This document shows positions 11,117 through 62,382 of a stretch of DNA of 64,000 nt, piece by piece. The notes beneath the pieces are model-generated. The model was not told where the DNA came from. It ran no database searches and saw nothing but the letters and a program-made list of their open reading frames with translations. Position 1 is the first letter of the stretch; the number at the start of each line of letters is the position of its first letter. Source of the DNA: Candidatus Nomurabacteria bacterium. Lineage in GTDB: Bacteria > Patescibacteriota > Minisyncoccia > Phycocordibacterales > UBA9973. The stretch covers positions 174,839 through 238,838 of the forward strand of contig JAHFNH010000001.1 in assembly GCA_023267435.1 (NCBI GenBank), in the 5' to 3' direction. The translations under genes and the position numbers were made by a program.

Positions 11117-11410
11117 ATGGAAACAAATAAACCTAAGTTACCCTTAATCTTTTTAGTGCGCAGAAAATGGAGAAATTCATTGTTTGCAGCCGGTATTCTT
11201 CATTATAAAATAGTTGGTTATAACTATATAGCTCCTGGTAGTAAAATGAGTGAGATTTCTCAAACAGGATGGATACCAATTAGACAGTATAATTTTGAAC
11301 ACCCGTATATGAAGAAAAGAATGGCGGAAGTTCAAAGGAAACAAGAAGAATGTTTAGAGCGAAAAAATGTGGACTGGGAAAGATTAAACAAAATTCGCAT
11401 AACGATTTAA
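11117..11410 (+). CDS. Hypothetical small protein
   Basis: 97-aa ORF followed by a terminator. Confidence 0.35.
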   Translation: METNKPKLPLIFLVRRKWRNSLFAAGILHYKIVGYNYIAPGSKMSEISQTGWIPIRQYNFEHPYMKKRMAEVQRKQEECLERKNVDWERLNKIRITI

Positions 11411-11449: not shown

Positions 11450-11475
11450 ATTTATAGTTATCCACAACTATTTTA

Positions 11476-11504
11476 TTGACAGTGAACGAGCGTTCACTTA
11501 TACT
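11476..11504 (+). promoter_or_regulatory. Sigma70-like promoter (TTGACA-17-TATACT) with a LexA/SOS (Cheo-type) box in the spacer
   Basis: -35 TTGACA at 11476-11481, -10 TATACT at 11499-11504. The spacer contains the perfect palindrome AGTGAACGAGCGTTCACT, which includes GAAC-N4-GTTC. Confidence 0.6.
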
Positions 11505-25507: not shown

Positions 25508-26260
25508 ATGTTGAAGAAAAAAATAGTCATAGGCAATTGGAAAATGAATCCACCTGCTAAAAAAGAGGCGGAAAGCATTTTCAAGTCTGTTTTGAAAAAT
25601 TTAAATCCAAAAAGAAAAACTGAAGTGGTTATTTGTCCGCCGTTTTTATACTTGGAAAGTTTAAAAAAATTATCCAAAAAAGTTTCCTTGGGAGCGCAAG
25701 ATGTTTTTTGGGAGGAGAAGGGTGCTTACACTGGGGAAGTTTCTGCTGATATGATTTATAATATCGGCGCCAGATATGTGATATTGGGGCACTCTGAAAG
25801 ACGAGCATTAGGTGAATCAAATATTGATGTAAATAAAAAAATAAAACAATCATTTTCTGTGGGTTTGATTCCTGTTGTGTGCGTGGGAGAAAGTGTACGC
25901 GATGAAAATCATGAATATCTTAATTTTGTAAAAACTCAAGTTGAAGAATGTTTGTTTGGAGTCTCTAAGAATTTTATTTCAAAAGTAATCATTGCATATG
26001 AACCAGTCTGGGCTATCGGCAAGAATGCTGTACGAGAAGCAACGTCAGAAGAATTTCGGGAGATGAGCATTTTTATCAAGAAAATTTTGAGCGATAAATT
26101 CGGAGCGAAAACGATAGAACAGATCAGAATAATTTACGGCGGATCAGTTCATCCAGAAAATGCGTTAGGATTTTTACAGGAAGGCGCTGATGGTTTTCTA
26201 GCAGGACGCGATAGTTTGGACCCTAAAAAGTTTTCAGAGATTATAAAAATATGTAGCTAA
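25508..26260 (+). CDS. tpiA: Triosephosphate isomerase
   Basis: TIM motifs GNWKMN, GHSERR and VCVGES. Confidence 0.9.
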   Translation: MLKKKIVIGNWKMNPPAKKEAESIFKSVLKNLNPKRKTEVVICPPFLYLESLKKLSKKVSLGAQDVFWEEKGAYTGEVSADMIYNIGARYVILGHSERRALGESNIDVNKKIKQSFSVGLIPVVCVGESVRDENHEYLNFVKTQVEECLFGVSKNFISKVIIAYEPVWAIGKNAVREATSEEFREMSIFIKKILSDKFGAKTIEQIRIIYGGSVHPENALGFLQEGADGFLAGRDSLDPKKFSEIIKICS

Positions 26261-26344
26261 ACTTATTGAAATTTTTTCCCACTGCGCCCTTCTCGGAATA
26301 CCGAGTGAGACCCTCGCGGATAAAAAATTTCAATAAGTTTAGCT
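26255..26344. repeat. 23-bp perfect inverted repeat enclosing a 44-nt GC-rich core; fills the whole tpiA-pgk spacer
   Basis: Arms agctaaacttattgaaatttttt (26255-26277) and aaaaaatttcaataagtttagct (26322-26344). The core contains the hairpin ctcgg-aata-ccgag. Confidence 0.6.
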
Positions 26345-26351
26345 TTAAATT

Positions 26352-27425
26352 ATGAAGTCAATTAAACAAGTAAAAAATATAAAAGGCAAAGTTGTGCTAG
26401 TACGTGTTGATTTCAATGTGCCGATCAAAGACGGCAAAATAGAGGATCCTTTCAGGATAAAAAAAGCTCTACCCACTATTGATTTCTTACATAAGAAAGG
26501 GGCGAAAATAATTTTAATAACGCATTTGGGTAAAGACGGCAGTGCTAGTCTGGAACCAGTAATTAAATCTTTTTTTAAAATATCTAAATACAAAAAATCA
26601 GAAATAAGTTTTTTTGAGAATGTTCGAAAGTTTCCAGGGGAAGAAAAGAATGATCCAACTTTTACTCGCAAGCTCGCTTCTCTTGGTGATGTTTATGTAA
26701 ACGATGCATTTTCCGTGTCACACCGGGCGCATGCTTCAGTGGTAGGCATTCCAAAATATTTGCCATCTTATGCTGGTTTTCAGCTTGAAGCTGAAATAAA
26801 AAATCTTTCTAAAGCTTTGAATCCTAAACACCCATTTTTATTTATTTTAGGTGGAGCAAAATTTTCTACTAAGATGCCTTTGATTAAGAAATATTTAAAA
26901 CTCGCAGATTATTGTTTTATCGGCGGTGCTCTTTTGAATGATTTTTTGAAAGCTAAAGGTTATGAGGTTGGCAAGTCACTCATTGATAATTCGAATTATG
27001 GTATTGAAAAGATTTTAAAAAATAAAAAATTAATATTACCTGTAGATGTAGTGGTAAAAAGTAGTGGTAAGTTAATTAATAAAGGAGTCACTGAAGTCTT
27101 AAAAGATGAAATTATTTTAGATATTGGTAGTGAATCGATAAAAATGATTGAGCCTTACATAAAAAAATCCAAACTTATTCTTTGGAATGGTCCGCTTGGA
27201 AAATACGAGGCAGGCGGAGGCGGAGCAACAAAAAAAGTATTGAAATTTGTCGCGAAATCTAAAGCGGAAAGCATTATTGGCGGGGGAGATACAGTTGAAT
27301 TAATTTCAGAAATGAAAATGGAAAAAGATTTTTCTTTTGTTTCCACTGGCGGTGGCGCAACGTTAGACTTCTTGGCGAACGGCACTCTGCCGGGAATTAA
27401 AGCTTTAGAAAATTCTAAAAAATAA
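26352..27425 (+). CDS. pgk: Phosphoglycerate kinase (short form)
   Basis: N-terminal VRVDFNVP and a C-terminal nucleotide-binding region GGGA...GGGD. Confidence 0.9.
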   Translation: MKSIKQVKNIKGKVVLVRVDFNVPIKDGKIEDPFRIKKALPTIDFLHKKGAKIILITHLGKDGSASLEPVIKSFFKISKYKKSEISFFENVRKFPGEEKNDPTFTRKLASLGDVYVNDAFSVSHRAHASVVGIPKYLPSYAGFQLEAEIKNLSKALNPKHPFLFILGGAKFSTKMPLIKKYLKLADYCFIGGALLNDFLKAKGYEVGKSLIDNSNYGIEKILKNKKLILPVDVVVKSSGKLINKGVTEVLKDEIILDIGSESIKMIEPYIKKSKLILWNGPLGKYEAGGGGATKKVLKFVAKSKAESIIGGGDTVELISEMKMEKDFSFVSTGGGATLDFLANGTLPGIKALENSKK

Positions 27426-36175: not shown

Positions 36176-36217
36176 TAAAAATCCCCCGCCGACGAAAGTC
36201 GGCGGGGGATTTTGTTT
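36176..36217 (+). terminator. Strong intrinsic terminator directly after rplE, ending the S19-L5 transcription unit
   Basis: Stem atcccccgccgac/gtcggcgggggat plus a T-run. Confidence 0.75.
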
Positions 36218-42153: not shown

Positions 42154-42193
42154 TAACAAAAACTTGTTAATCTTTAACAAGAAATAGTTAATC

Positions 42194-42230
42194 AAAAAAT
42201 CCTCCGCCACTGGCGGAGGATTTTTTGTTG
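42194..42230. terminator. Intrinsic terminator (CCTCCGCCA...TGGCGGAGG family)
   Basis: Stem atcctccgccac/tggcggaggat flanked by A- and T-runs. Confidence 0.7.
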
Positions 42231-55514: not shown

Positions 55515-55550
55515 TAAAAAATCCTCCGCCAGCTGGCGGAGGATTTTTAT
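55515..55550. terminator. Intrinsic terminator (CCTCCGCCA...TGGCGGAGG family)
   Basis: Stem atcctccgccagc/tggcggaggat plus a T-run. Confidence 0.7.
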
Positions 55551-55642
55551 TTTGTCAAACAAAATCAAACTTGTTTTTAAATTTTTTCTGTGGTTTTTTG
55601 AAAAGCTTGTTGCAGAAATATTTTAAGATAGTATACTTTTAG

Positions 55643-55768
55643 TAGGGTTATTTCCGATTATTACCTAGAACAATAAATTATGGGAGTCTCGATCGGGTAA
55701 GGCTTAGGCCTCACACGTCTGACACCCACTTAGCTTTACGCTATGGTAATATATCGGAAATAGCCCTA
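55643..55768 (+). other. 126-bp element bounded by a 16-bp near-perfect inverted repeat; candidate structured cis-regulatory RNA or MITE
   Basis: tagggttatttccgat (55643-55658) pairs with atcggaaatagcccta (55753-55768), 16 bp with one G-U. Inner helix ttacc-tag / cta-t-ggtaa and internal hairpin aggc-ttag-gcct. Confidence 0.45.
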
Positions 55769-55777
55769 AAGAAGGAT

Positions 55778-55806
55778 TCCGCGCATTCGTTTTGGGCGGA
55801 TTTTTT
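55778..55806 (+). terminator. Terminator-like hairpin + U-tract between the structured element and the downstream membrane-protein gene
   Basis: tccgc-N13-gcgga followed by tttttt. Confidence 0.4.
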
Positions 55807-55822
55807 CTTCAATATAGACATA

Positions 55823-56227
55823 ATGCAAAATATTAATAAAGAAAAACTTTTAAAACGCATGTTATTCATGGTTTTTTTTGTTTTTGGGCTAAATTCTTTA
55901 GCAATGAAATTTTATTGGTATTCAATGATTTGGTGGTTTGATATGCCGATGCATTTTTTAGGGGGATTTTTTGTCGGATTGGCTTGGATGTTTGTTTTTT
56001 TACCAAAAGATTTCACATATCAGGGTGGGTGGGGTAAATCAATTTTTAAAATAATTTTAGGGGTTCTTTTAATAGGAGTTTTATGGGAGATATTTGAGAT
56101 ACTTGTTGATAAGACTATTTCTCAAAATCCTTTCAATACTTTAGACACTATCTCAGATATTTGTTTTGATGTGGCGGGCGGTTTTACTGCTATTTTCTAT
56201 TTTCTAAAGAGAATTATGTCTGTTTAA
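55823..56227 (+). CDS. Small polytopic membrane protein, possibly VanZ-like
   Basis: 3-4 TM helices. C-terminal WEIFEILVDKTISQNPFNTLDTISDICFDVAGG resembles the VanZ motif. Confidence 0.4.
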   Translation: MQNINKEKLLKRMLFMVFFVFGLNSLAMKFYWYSMIWWFDMPMHFLGGFFVGLAWMFVFLPKDFTYQGGWGKSIFKIILGVLLIGVLWEIFEILVDKTISQNPFNTLDTISDICFDVAGGFTAIFYFLKRIMSV

Positions 56228-56231
56228 AAAA

Positions 56232-57614
56232 TTGCTGTATAATGTATCTATGGAGAAAATTGCAAAGATAACTTTTTGTGGGGGAACAGGTTCCGTAACA
56301 GGTGCAAACTTTTTACTTGAAGTTGAAGGAAAAAAAATATTAGTTGATTGCGGACTTACTCAAGGAACGAAATTAGCAGATGATATAAACTGGGATCCTT
56401 TTATTTATGATCCGAAAGAGATAGACATTCTTTTTATTACTCATGGGCATATCGACCATTTGGGCCGTATTCCAAAACTTATTTATGATGGTTTTCGTGG
56501 AAAGATTTATTCAACTGCGCCGACCAAAGCTCTAGCAGCTCCAATGCTCGAGGATACGATGGGTATACTTTCAAAAAATAGAGAACATAATTTGGATAAA
56601 ATTTATACTGAAGAAAATATACAACTCGCTCTTTCTTTGTGGCAAGGATTTGAATATCATGAAAAAATACAAATTGTTGAAAATTTAGAAGTTTCTTTTC
56701 TAAACGCTGGACATATACTAGGATCCGCTATGGTTGAATTTATTTACAACCGCAAGAAAATTCTTTTTACTGGAGACTTAGGAAATTCACCTTCACCTCT
56801 ACTTCCTGATACTGAAAAAGTTACTGATGTGGATTATTTGATAATGGAAAGCGTTTACGGTGATAGAAATCATGAAGCCAGAGAAGAAAGAAGAAAGTTT
56901 TTAGAAGAAGCAATTGAAGACAACTATAAAAGAAAAGGAACTCTAATTATTCCGACTTTTTCACTCGAACGTTCACAAGAGCTTTTATTTGAAATAGATG
57001 CTTTAGTGGAAGATCAGCGTATTCCTATCATGCCGATATTTCTTGATTCGCCTTTAGCTATAAGACTCACAGATGTTTTCAAGCAGTATAAAAGTTATTT
57101 CAATGAGAATGCTCAGAAAGCCATATCCGACGGCAAACATTTATTTGATTTTCCTGGGCTTCATTCTACTTTACAATCAGAAGAATCAAGAAAGATTTTA
57201 ACTGTACCCAATCCTAAAATAATTATTGCCGGTTCAGGGATGTCTTCGGGTGGCAGAGTAGTGCATCATGAAAAGAATTATTTGCCTGATCCCAACAATA
57301 CGCTTTTACTTACGGGTTATCAGTCTGTGGGTACGATGGGACGTTTGATCGAAGAAGGCGTAAAAACAGTTCATATTTCCGGTGAAGATGTTATTGTCCG
57401 GGCACATATCGCAACCATTTCCGGATATTCTGGACACAAAGATTCAGATCACTTGATTAATTTTGTGGAAGATATGGAAGATAGTTTGAAAAAAGTTTTT
57501 GTGGTTATGGGCGAACCAAAATCGTCATTGTTTTTAGTGCAGAAACTTAGAGACAATTTGGCAATTGATGCATCTGCTCCAGATCGAGGAGATAGTGTTT
57601 CGCTTGTTTGTTAA
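56232..57614 (+). CDS. Beta-CASP family MBL-fold ribonuclease (RNase J / CPSF-like)
   Basis: THGHIDHLG metallo-beta-lactamase motif and a beta-CASP region. The start may be the Met at 56250. Confidence 0.75.
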   Translation: MLYNVSMEKIAKITFCGGTGSVTGANFLLEVEGKKILVDCGLTQGTKLADDINWDPFIYDPKEIDILFITHGHIDHLGRIPKLIYDGFRGKIYSTAPTKALAAPMLEDTMGILSKNREHNLDKIYTEENIQLALSLWQGFEYHEKIQIVENLEVSFLNAGHILGSAMVEFIYNRKKILFTGDLGNSPSPLLPDTEKVTDVDYLIMESVYGDRNHEAREERRKFLEEAIEDNYKRKGTLIIPTFSLERSQELLFEIDALVEDQRIPIMPIFLDSPLAIRLTDVFKQYKSYFNENAQKAISDGKHLFDFPGLHSTLQSEESRKILTVPNPKIIIAGSGMSSGGRVVHHEKNYLPDPNNTLLLTGYQSVGTMGRLIEEGVKTVHISGEDVIVRAHIATISGYSGHKDSDHLINFVEDMEDSLKKVFVVMGEPKSSLFLVQKLRDNLAIDASAPDRGDSVSLVC

Positions 57615-58253: not shown

Positions 58254-58292
58254 TAAAAACCCTCCGCCAAACTGGCGGAGGGTTTTTAGTTT
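58254..58292. terminator. Intrinsic terminator (CCTCCGCCA...TGGCGGAGG family)
   Basis: Stem accctccgccaa/tggcggagggt plus a T-run. Confidence 0.7.
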
Positions 58293-61874: not shown

Positions 61875-61887
61875 TAACAGAATATTG

Positions 61888-62266
61888 GGACTGCAAGGCA
61901 TAGACAGTAAGCCATTTGCTATTGATGCATGCCGAGTATGGACGTAATCTCGTTAAAATTCGTTCAAATGTTAATTGCAAAATTGACTTCAAAGCAATCT
62001 CCATACTTCGGTATGAAAGATCTTGCTCTAGCCTTCGCGTAAGCCTCGGCTAGTGTCTCTCTCATAGACTTCCGATATATGAGTCGAGGCATAATATTAT
62101 CGGGATAGGGAAGAGAATGTCCTGACTCTTCTCCGAAACAAAAGGAATCGGTTCTGAAATATTTCGTGCACTTAAGAATTTCAGAATTTAAACAAAAAAG
62201 TGTACTAAGCATGTAGATTTCCTTGCAACTACTTTCTGCACTGGGGTTCAATTCCCCACAGTTCCA
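61888..62266 (+). ncRNA. ssrA: Transfer-messenger RNA (tmRNA, ssrA)
   Basis: Starts 13 nt after smpB. The 5' gggacug pairs with the 3' caguucc, giving a G3.U70 wobble with discriminator A. T-arm ugggg-uucaauu-cccca lies at 62242-62258. gcaugccgag (61927-61936) is shared with E. coli tmRNA. The tag ORF from GCA at 61977 reads AKLTSKQSPYFGMKDLALAFA and stops at 62040. Confidence 0.75.
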
Positions 62267-62382
62267 CAAATTCATTTAGCTATTATAATATAAAGGTATT
62301 TATATATTGACTTTTGTGTTTATTTATGATACAATTGCTTGTAAATAAGGATAACGTTGTTCTTATAAAAAAGGAGGTCTAA

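What the first reader, a model, noticed from the sequence alone, without database searches (positions are those of the whole stretch)
55643..55806. 126-bp element closed by a 16-bp inverted repeat, followed by a terminator-like hairpin, upstream of a small membrane protein
tagggttatttccgat (55643-55658) and atcggaaatagcccta (55753-55768) form a 16-bp helix with one G-U pair. It encloses about 94 nt that contain a second stacked helix (ttacc-tag / cta-t-ggtaa) and internal hairpins such as aggc-ttag-gcct. Just downstream, tccgc-N13-gcgga plus UUUUUU resembles an expression-platform terminator. Then comes a 134-aa polytopic membrane protein (possibly VanZ-like). There are two readings: (a) a riboswitch-like cis-regulatory RNA controlling a transporter or resistance protein, or (b) a MITE with 16-bp terminal inverted repeats. 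I could not match it to the fluoride, guanidine, Mn, SRP or 6S consensus sequences.
Basis: seen in the sequence. Interest (0 to 1): 0.6.

Follow-up and report, generated by a model that had tools for sequence, protein, structure and literature searches.

The report
Conserved small RNA gene in Patescibacteria
The palindrome is real: it is the closing stem of a roughly 165-nt structured small RNA with its own promoter and terminator, conserved with compensatory base changes in one lineage of ultra-small Patescibacteria, matching no known RNA family and built more like a miniature 6S RNA than a riboswitch or a mobile element.

Summary
55643-55768 folds into a 26-bp closing stem, a 13-nt open strand, an irregular apical hairpin and a small 3' hairpin, followed by an intrinsic terminator (z = -8.7).

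It is not chance, a MITE or a riboswitch. It is single-copy, and it sits at the same place in about 200 Nomurabacteria/Paceibacteria loci. On 140 distinct sequences, 92.8% of cells pair (32-45% when the partners are slid) and 22 pairs show changes on both sides. G-U pairs fix the + strand.

All 171 distinct upstream sequences carry TTGC-16 nt-TAnAnT ending 3 nt before the RNA. All 192 loci have a hairpin plus T-run. The next gene has its own -10 box 6-8 nt before its ATG, so it looks leaderless. No antiterminator exists.

No Rfam 15 family matches, even at E <= 10. Nothing was found in the literature searched.

This is a stand-alone gene of a new small-RNA family (about 0.9). My best mechanistic guess (about 0.4) is a miniature 6S-type RNA: a rod with an open 5' bubble strand, and a 3' bubble hairpin that competes with the top of the closing helix. 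The two forms are predicted to be isoenergetic. Its fixed position upstream of a DUF2238 membrane gene and a CPSF-like beta-CASP RNase keeps an RNase-linked role open.

The parts
55610..55637 (+). Promoter of the RNA gene: -35 TTGCAG (55610-55615), 16-nt spacer, -10 TATACT (55632-55637). The predicted start is about 55642-55644.
   Evidence: The sequence was read. In 171 of 171 distinct upstream sequences the same TTGC-16/17 nt-TAnAnT lies 3 nt before the core. Divergent homologues have the same layout. The start site is inferred from promoter geometry, not measured.
55643..55668 (+). 5' strand of closing stem P1 (26 nt). Its top (UAG, 55666-55668) is segment X1.
   Evidence: MFE fold. Pair counts (helix 1: 96.6% of cells paired). 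Compensatory changes occur in the middle (cols 14/132 and 17/129) and, in distant homologues, in the outer block.
55669..55681 (+). Open 5' strand of the central bubble (J1/2), AACAAUAAAUUAU. It has a conserved A-rich start with a pyrimidine at its third base (C55671), followed by a variable A/U-rich tail.
   Evidence: Unpaired in the MFE and in the consensus folds. No covarying partner was found by mutual information. Sequences were compared.
55682..55727 (+). Apical arm P2: GGG/CCC clamp, A-A mismatch, covarying 3-bp helix, internal loops and a tip hairpin (CUUG loop in most homologues, UUAG here).
   Evidence: This arm shows the strongest covariation: cols 49-90 and 50-89 have 79 and 77 double changes, and cols 65-77 and 66-76 have 49 and 62. 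A sister group replaces it with a longer, different arm.
55728..55743 (+). 3' strand of the bubble: ACU, then small hairpin P3 (X2 = UAG 55732-55734, loop, X' = CUA 55741-55743). P3 uses the same CUA that pairs with X1 at the top of P1.
   Evidence: helix 5: 93% of cells paired. Double changes at the inner pairs are seen in L159, L191 and the long group. The alternative forms are predicted isoenergetic.
55741..55768 (+). 3' strand of closing stem P1.
   Evidence: C/U and A/G toggling opposite G and U of the 5' strand (G-U 62 / G-C 16, U-G 72 / U-A 5, U-A 58 / U-G 20 in the unbiased set) shows selection on the + strand RNA.
55769..55806 (+). Purine linker AAGAAGGA, then the intrinsic terminator: UCCGC 55778-55782, loop, GCGGA 55796-55800, U6 55801-55806.
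   Evidence: A hairpin plus T-run is present in 192 of 192 homologous loci (median -9.3 kcal/mol), giving a whole RNA of about 164 nt. The stem sequence varies and covaries between loci.
55813..55825 (+). Candidate -10 box (TATAGA 55813-55818, or CATAAT 55819-55824) and the ATG (55823) of the DUF2238-like membrane gene. This marks the start of a separate, probably leaderless, transcription unit. It is not part of the RNA.
   Evidence: The window sequence is weak on its own. In homologues, 141 of 169 distinct sequences have a >=5/6 -10 box just after the terminator (50% in shuffles), typically 6-8 nt before the ATG.

Best explanation
The region 55642-55806 (+) is a stand-alone gene for a structured small RNA of about 165 nt. 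It belongs to a previously undescribed family found in Nomurabacteria/Paceibacteria-type Patescibacteria. A sigma-70-type promoter starts transcription at the first base of a 26-bp closing stem, and an intrinsic terminator ends it. The neighbouring genes have their own promoters. This part is shown by sequence, conservation and covariation; I put it at about 0.9.

The proposed mechanism is inferred, at about 0.4. I think the RNA is the lineage's 6S-type RNA, a mimic of an open promoter that binds the RNA polymerase holoenzyme.
- P1 would lie where downstream DNA lies.
- The 13-15-nt open 5' bubble strand would act as the template strand.
- P2 would stand for upstream DNA.

When nucleotides are plentiful, the polymerase would copy the 5' bubble strand and the top of P1 into a short product RNA. 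The predicted start is opposite C55671, giving 5'-GUUCUAGGUAAUAA. That would free the 3' strand of P1, whose CUA then closes hairpin P3 with the 3' bubble strand, and the RNA would be released. The stated confidence refers to this mechanism.
For: Stand-alone gene:
- The promoter is conserved in 171 of 171 distinct upstream sequences.
- A terminator is present in 192 of 192 loci.
- The downstream genes have their own -10 box 6-8 nt before the ATG.
- There is one copy per locus.
- The RNA core is more conserved (82% nucleotide identity) than the adjacent beta-CASP coding DNA (74%).

Real structure:
- 92.8% of cells pair, against 32-45% when partners are slid. There are 22 pairs and 547 cells with double changes, and 0 of 500 shuffles reach this.
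- All top mutual-information pairs lie in the model.
- Compensatory changes appear in the outer P1 block in distant homologues.

6S-like design:
- The shape is a rod: closing helix, bubble, irregular arm, with G-C clamps on both sides of the bubble.
- The 5' bubble strand is always unpaired and A/U-rich.
- The 3' bubble strand carries a hairpin that shares three bases with the 3' strand of the closing helix.
- The two forms are predicted isoenergetic: median ddG 0.0 kcal/mol, within 2 kcal/mol in 119 of 140 sequences.
- In L212 all three segments changed together (UAG/UAG/CUA to GUG/GUG/CAU). L210 shows a weaker case, CUG/CUG/CAG.
- Published 6S RNAs form exactly such a 3' bubble hairpin, either with the 3' strand of the downstream helix (E. 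coli) or already in the free RNA (B. subtilis 6S-1). A 78-nt 6S-1 core without the -35-like arm still completes the cycle (PMC8876501). This makes the small size and the variable P2 compatible with a 6S role.
- CPR housekeeping RNAs are known to escape Rfam models (RNase P RNA; PMC8172020).
Against: - No match to Rfam 6S (or to any other family) even at E <= 10, for the window or for divergent homologues.
- The core is only about 126 nt, against roughly 200 nt for typical 6S RNAs.
- A terminator hairpin hangs outside the closing stem.
- The P2 arm is 46 nt in one group and about 70 nt in another.
- The three-way covariation rests on one clear lineage and one weak lineage.
- Equal energies are partly expected, because X1 and X2 have the same sequence.
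- A bistable element could serve other purposes, such as a folding pathway or protein binding.
- The RNA is always found just upstream of DUF2238/beta-CASP genes, even where the upstream flank differs. This could point to a function tied to those genes.
- There are no expression or binding data.
- I could not test whether these genomes hold a canonical 6S RNA elsewhere.
Confidence: 0.4

Rival explanations
1. A trans-acting RNA whose function is tied to the neighbouring genes. It could be a regulator, decoy, substrate or partner of the CPSF-like beta-CASP ribonuclease, or the RNA part of some other RNA-protein particle. In this reading the conserved closing stem and junction are a protein-binding site, not a promoter mimic.
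For: The RNA always lies just upstream of, and on the same strand as, a DUF2238 gene and/or the beta-CASP gene.
- This holds in about 190 loci found either by the protein or by an RNA pattern that ignores context.
- It also holds in lineages whose beta-CASP is only 49-58% identical and whose upstream genes differ: FUR/ZnuA in L203, adenylate kinase/Met aminopeptidase/NDK in L210.

Within the main family, sequence conservation of the P1 blocks and junction is higher than pairing alone needs. The beta-CASP protein is CPSF/aCPSF1-like, and its best NCBIfam match is the Cas14 nuclease of type VII CRISPR, below the cut-off. That enzyme type is known to work with RNA partners in other systems; this last point is my own knowledge.
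Against: - Gene order in these tiny genomes is generally stable (TraD-like, NDK and SLOG genes are linked too), so adjacency is weak evidence.
- Beta-CASP genes at 46-53% identity (L204-L207) have no such RNA within 2.5 kb, so the enzyme does not need it nearby.
- Nothing in the RNA suggests a guide function: the conserved strands are buried in P1, and no complementary targets were found in the window.
Confidence: 0.25
2. A cis-acting leader (riboswitch or protein-dependent attenuator) of the DUF2238-beta-CASP-SLOG genes. A signal would shift the P1-top/P3 balance and change how much transcription reads through the terminator.
For: - Same strand as, and immediately upstream of, the same genes everywhere.
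- A three-way-junction-like core with a conserved bistable element.
- A terminator follows directly.
- The -35 regions of the downstream promoters are poor, so read-through could contribute.
Against: - The terminator stem varies freely (CUCCGC, CCCCCG, UCUCC and others) while the P1 3' strand is constant. No conserved antiterminator pairing can therefore exist.
- The switchable element is 25 nt away from the terminator, behind a 23-bp helix.
- The downstream ATG has no Shine-Dalgarno sequence. It sits 6-8 nt after its own -10 box, with a position-specific excess over shuffles (141 of 169 against 50%). That layout fits a leaderless mRNA starting at the ATG.
- The first downstream gene differs between loci: the membrane gene is absent in 10 of 78 genome loci.
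- The RNA has a strong promoter of its own that is more conserved than anything downstream.
Confidence: 0.12
3. A highly diverged member of a known housekeeping RNA family that Rfam models fail to recognise: SRP (4.5S) RNA, or a Y-RNA-like or RNase-P-related fragment.
For: The size and hairpin-like shape resemble 4.5S RNA. CPR RNase P RNAs are known to fall below Rfam thresholds (PMC8172020).
Against: - No sub-threshold hit to SRP, RNase P, Y RNA or 6S models at E <= 10 in the window or in 13 homologous loci.
- The apical arm, which is the invariant functional part of SRP RNA, is the least conserved part here. It is replaced outright in a sister group.
- There is no GNRA loop and no GGAA/AGCA-type loop motif (read directly).
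Confidence: 0.03
4. A MITE or other mobile or DNA-level palindrome, or a chance inverted repeat.
For: 16-26-bp terminal inverted repeats enclose about 75-95 bp.
Against: - Single copy: other near-matches in the window are at chance level.
- Same position in all related genomes.
- G-U pairs and compensatory changes.
- It has its own promoter and terminator.
- Absent from phage, plasmid and viral collections; the single viral pattern hit is a chance match.
- Folding z-score of -8.7.
Confidence: 0.01

Closest known systems
6S RNA (Rfam RF00013; E. coli SsrS, B. subtilis 6S-1)
   Same: - A stand-alone small RNA.
- Rod shape: a closing helix formed by both ends, a large central bubble with an unpaired 5' strand, and an irregular distal arm.
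- G-C clamps flanking the bubble.
- A hairpin in the 3' bubble strand that can use the 3' strand of the closing-side helix. This is the element that drives release in E. coli, and it pre-exists in B. subtilis 6S-1 (PMC8876501).
   Different: - No covariance-model match at any threshold tried.
- The core is about 126 nt instead of about 180-200 nt.
- The distal arm is short and of variable length.
- A separate terminator hairpin sits at the 3' end.
- Polymerase binding and product-RNA synthesis are untested.
Ms1 RNA of actinobacteria (6S-related, binds RNA polymerase core)
   Same: A lineage-specific RNA with a 6S-like fold that standard 6S models miss. It was found through synteny (PMC9130861, listed).
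   Different: By my own recollection Ms1 is about 300 nt and has a different domain layout. No sequence or model relation was tested or seen here.
Terminator-type riboswitches and leader attenuators
   Same: A conserved multi-helix RNA with alternative pairings, followed by an intrinsic terminator, upstream of a membrane-protein gene.
   Different: - The alternative pairing does not involve the terminator.
- The closing stem is 26 bp.
- The downstream gene has its own promoter and appears leaderless.
- The downstream gene is not constant.
MITEs
   Same: A short element bounded by inverted repeats.
   Different: Single copy, fixed locus, RNA-level covariation, own promoter and terminator.

Membership tests
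6S RNA (RF00013 and related Rfam 6S models) | Scores against the family covariance model | tested here: not met
   No 6S hit at gathering score. None at E <= 10 on the 401-nt region, on the long-group loci or on divergent homologues.
6S RNA (RF00013 and related Rfam 6S models) | Rod-like fold: closing helix, large central bubble, irregular distal helix | tested here: met
   MFE and consensus folds. Pair counts with controls. No competing long-range pairs.
6S RNA (RF00013 and related Rfam 6S models) | 3' bubble hairpin that forms with, or is extended by, the 3' strand of the closing-side helix (release element) | tested here: inconclusive
   P3 shares CUA with the top of P1. The two forms are predicted isoenergetic. 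Joint change of all three segments is seen in L212 and, more weakly, in L210. This is one or two lineages only, and it is prediction, not probing.
6S RNA (RF00013 and related Rfam 6S models) | Length of about 150-200 nt | tested here: inconclusive
   The whole transcript is about 164 nt, but the rod itself is only 126-156 nt.
6S RNA (RF00013 and related Rfam 6S models) | Binds the housekeeping sigma holoenzyme and templates short product RNAs | not testable with these tools
   Needs binding assays or small-RNA sequencing.
Riboswitch / cis-regulatory leader | Lies in the 5' untranslated region of the regulated mRNA | tested here: not met
   The downstream ATG lies 6-8 nt after its own -10 box in most loci. 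The RNA ends in a terminator in 192 of 192 loci. This rests on sequence only; transcripts were not mapped.
Riboswitch / cis-regulatory leader | Expression platform in which the sensor competes with the terminator or the ribosome-binding site | tested here: not met
   The terminator stems vary while the P1 3' strand is constant. There is no conserved complementarity between them and no Shine-Dalgarno sequence to mask.
Riboswitch / cis-regulatory leader | Binds a small-molecule ligand | not testable with these tools
   Needs in-line probing or a similar assay.
MITE | Multiple dispersed copies, with presence or absence varying between related genomes | tested here: not met
   One copy in 64 kb and one per locus in 1.44 Mb of related DNA. 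Present at the same site in 79 of 80 genome loci; the 80th is cut off.
Bacterial SRP (4.5S) RNA | Conserved apical domain (GNRA loop with symmetric and asymmetric loops) and a match to the Rfam SRP models | tested here: not met
   No SRP hit at E <= 10. The apical arm is the most variable part and is replaced in a sister group.

The most novel reading that the evidence does not exclude
The RNA is a dedicated partner of the adjacent CPSF-like beta-CASP ribonuclease: a bacterial small RNA that recruits, guides or gates a CPSF73/Cas14-type nuclease. That would explain why the RNA gene stays glued to the DUF2238/beta-CASP genes across lineages while everything upstream changes. A less radical but still new reading is that it is the first 6S-type RNA of the candidate phyla radiation, stripped down to a core of about 126 nt with a built-in release hairpin; I give that about 0.4.
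Probability: 0.08. Interest if true: 0.9.

Novelty: new variant of a known kind. Interest (0 to 1): 0.62.

Why it matters
Patescibacteria (the candidate phyla radiation) are a large, mostly uncultured part of bacterial diversity with tiny genomes, and almost nothing is known about their regulatory RNAs. I found no paper linking 6S RNA, or any lineage-specific small RNA, to them.

This RNA has a strong promoter and is more conserved than the neighbouring protein-coding DNA. It is kept in genomes that have shed most regulators, so it is likely to do something central.

If it is a 6S-type RNA, it would show that the open-promoter mimic can be reduced to about 126 nt in nature. It would also give a covariance model for finding polymerase-regulating RNAs that current models miss.

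If it instead works with the CPSF-like RNase, it would be a new kind of bacterial RNA-protein pairing.

Either way, the alignments and the model built here make the question directly testable by metatranscriptome mapping and simple binding assays.

Tried and rejected
- Rfam 15, on the whole window at gathering score and on the 401-nt region at E <= 10. Only the tmRNA and terminator-driven noise came up. The same was true for 10 homologous loci, 4 long-group loci and 5 divergent loci.
- Extra copies of the repeat in the window: chance level. nhmmer and the covariance model R1 found one copy per locus.
- SRP, RNase P and Y RNA readings: no sub-threshold hits, and the apical arm is not conserved.
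- Pseudoknot search by mutual information with APC correction: every top pair is already in the nested model.
- Antisense targets of the conserved 5' strand in the window: chance level.
- Phage, plasmid and viral collections: nothing. The one viral pattern hit (L216) and two metagenome hits (L134, L158) are chance matches of the pattern.
- I first read the invariant 5' strand of P1 as a sign of an extra sequence-specific function. I withdrew this. The metagenome loci were selected by a pattern on that strand. In the unbiased genome set, the asymmetry is explained by a G/U-rich 5' strand whose partners can toggle C/U and A/G without breaking pairs. In distant homologues the strand does change, with compensation.
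- My first automatic terminator and promoter scripts used wrong offsets (first part). They were redone.
- The best 120 hits of the search for homologous proteins were all 79% or more identical and added no range. The representative search was needed to reach 46-58% relatives.
- Literature searches for 6S or non-coding RNA in CPR found nothing relevant apart from the diverged RNase P RNAs.

Full report
**Observation**

The sequence is as described. TAGGGTTATTTCCGAT (55643-55658) pairs with ATCGGAAATAGCCCTA (55753-55768), with one U-G pair. The helix continues to 26 bp with two single-base bulges. Inside lie a 13-nt unpaired stretch, an irregular hairpin ending in AGGC-UUAG-GCCU, and a second short hairpin. 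UCCGC-N13-GCGGA-UUUUUU follows at 55778-55806. RNAfold gives -72.6 kcal/mol for 55635-55810, against -39.2 +/- 3.8 for shuffles (z = -8.7). The minus strand folds less well (-66.4) and has no U-run after the hairpin.

**Source organism and neighbours**

The window is low-GC DNA (about 36%) from a Patescibacteria genome. Relatives are labelled Candidatus Nomurabacteria, Paceibacterota or Minisyncoccia.

The genes around the element are, in order:
- a TraD/VirD4-like ATPase;
- nucleoside diphosphate kinase, with its own terminator at 55517-55548;
- the element itself;
- a 134-aa membrane protein, whose homologues carry DUF2238 hits;
- a 454-aa CPSF-like beta-CASP metallo-beta-lactamase RNase;
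- a SLOG/TIGR00725 protein.

**It is conserved, single-copy and syntenic, so not a MITE and not chance**

A search of species-representative genomes with the beta-CASP protein gave 80 loci at 69-88% protein identity. nhmmer finds the element on the + strand just upstream in 79 of them; the 80th is cut off.

A context-blind pattern scan of metagenome contigs returned 120 more loci. Of these, 118 contain the element and 2 are chance pattern hits. Wherever enough flank is present, beta-CASP lies downstream.

There is one copy per locus and one in the 64-kb window. None occurs in phages, plasmids or viral contigs.

The RNA core is 82% identical between random pairs of genomes, against 74% for the adjacent beta-CASP coding DNA.

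**The structure is real**

- RNAalifold on 78 unbiased genome sequences predicts 50 pairs, 16 of them with compensatory changes.
- On 140 distinct cores, my model has 46 pairs and 92.8% of cells paired, against 32-45% when the 3' partners are slid by 1-3 columns.
- 22 pairs and 547 cells show changes on both sides, and 0 of 500 shuffles reach any of the measures.
- The strongest covariation is in the apical arm. Columns 49-90 carry CG 54, UA 43 and AU 34; columns 50-89 carry CG 47, GC 36 and UA 36.
- Every high mutual-information pair belongs to the nested model, so there is no sign of a pseudoknot.
- In the unbiased set, several P1 pairs toggle G-U/G-C and U-G/U-A through changes on the 3' strand only. 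These would be mismatches on the other strand, so the RNA is on the + strand.
- The outer blocks of P1 look invariant within the family. In lineages with 49-58% beta-CASP identity they change with compensation: A-U to G-C, and G-C to C-G twice.

**It is its own transcription unit**

All 171 distinct upstream sequences have TTGC (99, 91, 91 and 86% per base), a 16-nt spacer (160 of 171) and TAnAnT. The -10 box ends 3 nt before the core in 165 of 171. In the window these are TTGCAG at 55610-55615 and TATACT at 55632-55637. This places the start at about 55642-55644, at the first base of P1 (an inference).

All 192 loci with enough sequence have a hairpin plus T-run (median -9.3 kcal/mol), giving an RNA of about 164 nt. 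The terminator stems differ between loci and covary.

Directly after the U-run, most loci have a -10 box. In 141 of 169 distinct sequences it matches at 5/6 or better, against 50% of shuffles, with peaks at fixed offsets. An ATG follows 6-8 nt later, with no Shine-Dalgarno sequence. L125 has TATAAT-6 nt-ATG before beta-CASP. L203, L212 and L215 show the same. So does the window's own beta-CASP gene (TGTATAAT, 6 nt, ATG at 56250). The downstream genes therefore appear to be leaderless mRNAs with their own promoters.

Ten of the 78 genome loci that hold the RNA lack the membrane gene but keep the RNA.

Together with the absence of any conserved pairing between the constant P1 3' strand and the variable terminator stems, this argues against a riboswitch or attenuator. 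None of it is transcript data.

**It is not a known family**

Rfam 15 gives only the tmRNA in the window. The region yields nothing meaningful at E <= 10. The same holds for 10 homologous loci at gathering score, 4 long-group loci and 5 divergent loci.

Six full-text literature searches found nothing on 6S or lineage-specific small RNAs in Patescibacteria; I also checked one candidate paper directly and found nothing. One paper does show that CPR RNase P RNAs fall below Rfam thresholds (PMC8172020), so a missed divergent family is possible in principle.

SRP RNA is unlikely, because the apical arm is the least conserved part. A sister group (9 loci, beta-CASP 55-69% identical) keeps P1, the bubble, the GGG/CCC clamp and P3, but has a different apical arm of about 70 nt.

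**Range of the family**

I reached more distant beta-CASP proteins through the 50%-identity representative library and fetched their contigs.

The RNA was found upstream of DUF2238-beta-CASP in these loci:
- L203: beta-CASP 57% identical, 41 bits;
- L208 and L209: 58%, 69 bits;
- L212: 51%, 18 bits;
- L210 (53%) and L215 (49%), found by eye;
- L211 (54%), 3' end only.

All have the same promoter, RNA, terminator, -10 box and ATG layout, while the genes upstream differ. The RNA is absent within 2.5 kb upstream in L204 (53%), L205 (48%) and L206/L207 (46%). These loci also lack the DUF2238 gene.

**A bistable element**

The three bases CUA at 55741-55743 (X') can pair in two ways. They can pair with UAG at 55666-55668 (X1), which gives the top of P1. 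Or they can pair with UAG at 55732-55734 (X2), which closes the small hairpin P3 in the 3' strand of the bubble. Both options are fully conserved in the main family.

The inner P3 pairs do not conflict with P1. They show double changes in several lineages: C-G to U-A in L159, to A-U in L191, and U-A to G-C in the long group.

Constrained folding of 140 sequences gives a median energy difference of 0.0 kcal/mol between the two forms. The difference is within 2 kcal/mol in 119 of them. The unconstrained MFE picks P1-top in the window and L208, and P3 in L203 and L210.

In L212 the three segments read GUG, GUG and CAU, so both helices are kept through a joint change. L210 reads CUG, CUG and CAG, but its P1-top is weak. 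This suggests selection for both conformations, but it rests on only one or two events.

**Mechanism**

The anatomy has these features:
- a rod whose two ends form a long helix;
- an unpaired 13-15-nt 5' bubble strand, with an A-rich start and a pyrimidine at its third base;
- G-C clamps on both sides of the bubble;
- an irregular distal arm of variable length;
- a 3' bubble hairpin that competes for the 3' strand of the closing-side helix.

This is the design described for 6S RNAs. In E. coli, unwinding of the downstream helix during product-RNA synthesis lets its 3' strand form a hairpin with the 3' bubble strand and drives release. In B. subtilis 6S-1, a smaller 3' bubble hairpin already exists in the free RNA. 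A 78-nt core without the -35-like arm still completes the cycle (PMC8876501).

I therefore propose a miniature 6S-type RNA at about 0.4. The predicted product RNA starts opposite C55671 and reads 5'-GUUCUAGGUAAUAA.

Several points count against this: there is no model match, the size is small, a terminator hairpin hangs outside the rod, and the linkage to DUF2238/beta-CASP genes is unbroken.

The main rival (0.25) is a trans-acting RNA tied to the CPSF-like RNase or to another protein. A cis-acting leader gets 0.12, a diverged known RNA 0.03 and a MITE 0.01.

**Verdict**

It is a strongly supported new family of structured small RNA in an under-studied phylum. It is not a riboswitch or a MITE. 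Its function is open, but there is a concrete and testable 6S-like model.

Noticed in passing
window 26255-26345 (+): A second strongly structured intergenic element lies between ORFs 25508-26260 and 26352-27425. A 23-bp perfect A/U-rich stem (26255-26277 with 26322-26344) encloses a GC-rich irregular hairpin. MFE is -42.5 kcal/mol, z = -8.4. It has no Rfam hit at gathering score. It could be another small RNA or an elaborate bidirectional terminator.
   Followed up: partly
window 56232-56252; L125 2480-2520; L203 2075-2105; L212 1195-1222; L215 305-325: Many genes in this lineage seem to be leaderless. A good -10 box (often TGnTAnAAT) sits 6-8 nt before the ATG, with no Shine-Dalgarno sequence. 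An example is TGTATAAT-gtatct-ATG before the beta-CASP gene, which also suggests that gene starts at 56250 and not at the TTG at 56232.
   Followed up: partly
window 56250-57614 (+): The best NCBIfam match of the 454-aa beta-CASP protein is the Cas14 nuclease of type VII CRISPR systems (398 bits, cut-off 800). The next is archaeal aCPSF1 (307 bits). RNase J models score only about 21-25 bits. It is therefore a CPSF-like enzyme, not RNase J. It is paired with a SLOG/TIGR00725 gene in most loci down to 46% identity, though L203 and L205 have other genes there.
   Followed up: partly
window 61887-62269 (+): A tmRNA gene (124 bits) with tag peptide AKLTSKQSPYFGMKDLALAFA lies about 6 kb downstream. 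It is also linked to this region in related contigs.
   Followed up: no
window 55517-55548 and many other sites (e.g. 42193-42227, 58254-58288, 36178-36213): Intrinsic terminators here often share nearly the same stem (AAAAATCCTCCGCCA...TGGCGGAGGATTTTT) with flanking A- and T-runs, so they could act in both directions.
   Followed up: no
window 11205-11228 and 11453-11476: A 24-nt inverted repeat (88% complementary) has its arms 224 nt apart. It was not examined.
   Followed up: no
L002-L081, upstream of the RNA: The NDK-like gene upstream comes in two very different forms (about 75-83% or about 25-42% identical to the window's NDK). Extra genes are often inserted between it and the RNA. The RNA-to-beta-CASP side is never interrupted except by the DUF2238 gene.
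   Followed up: no
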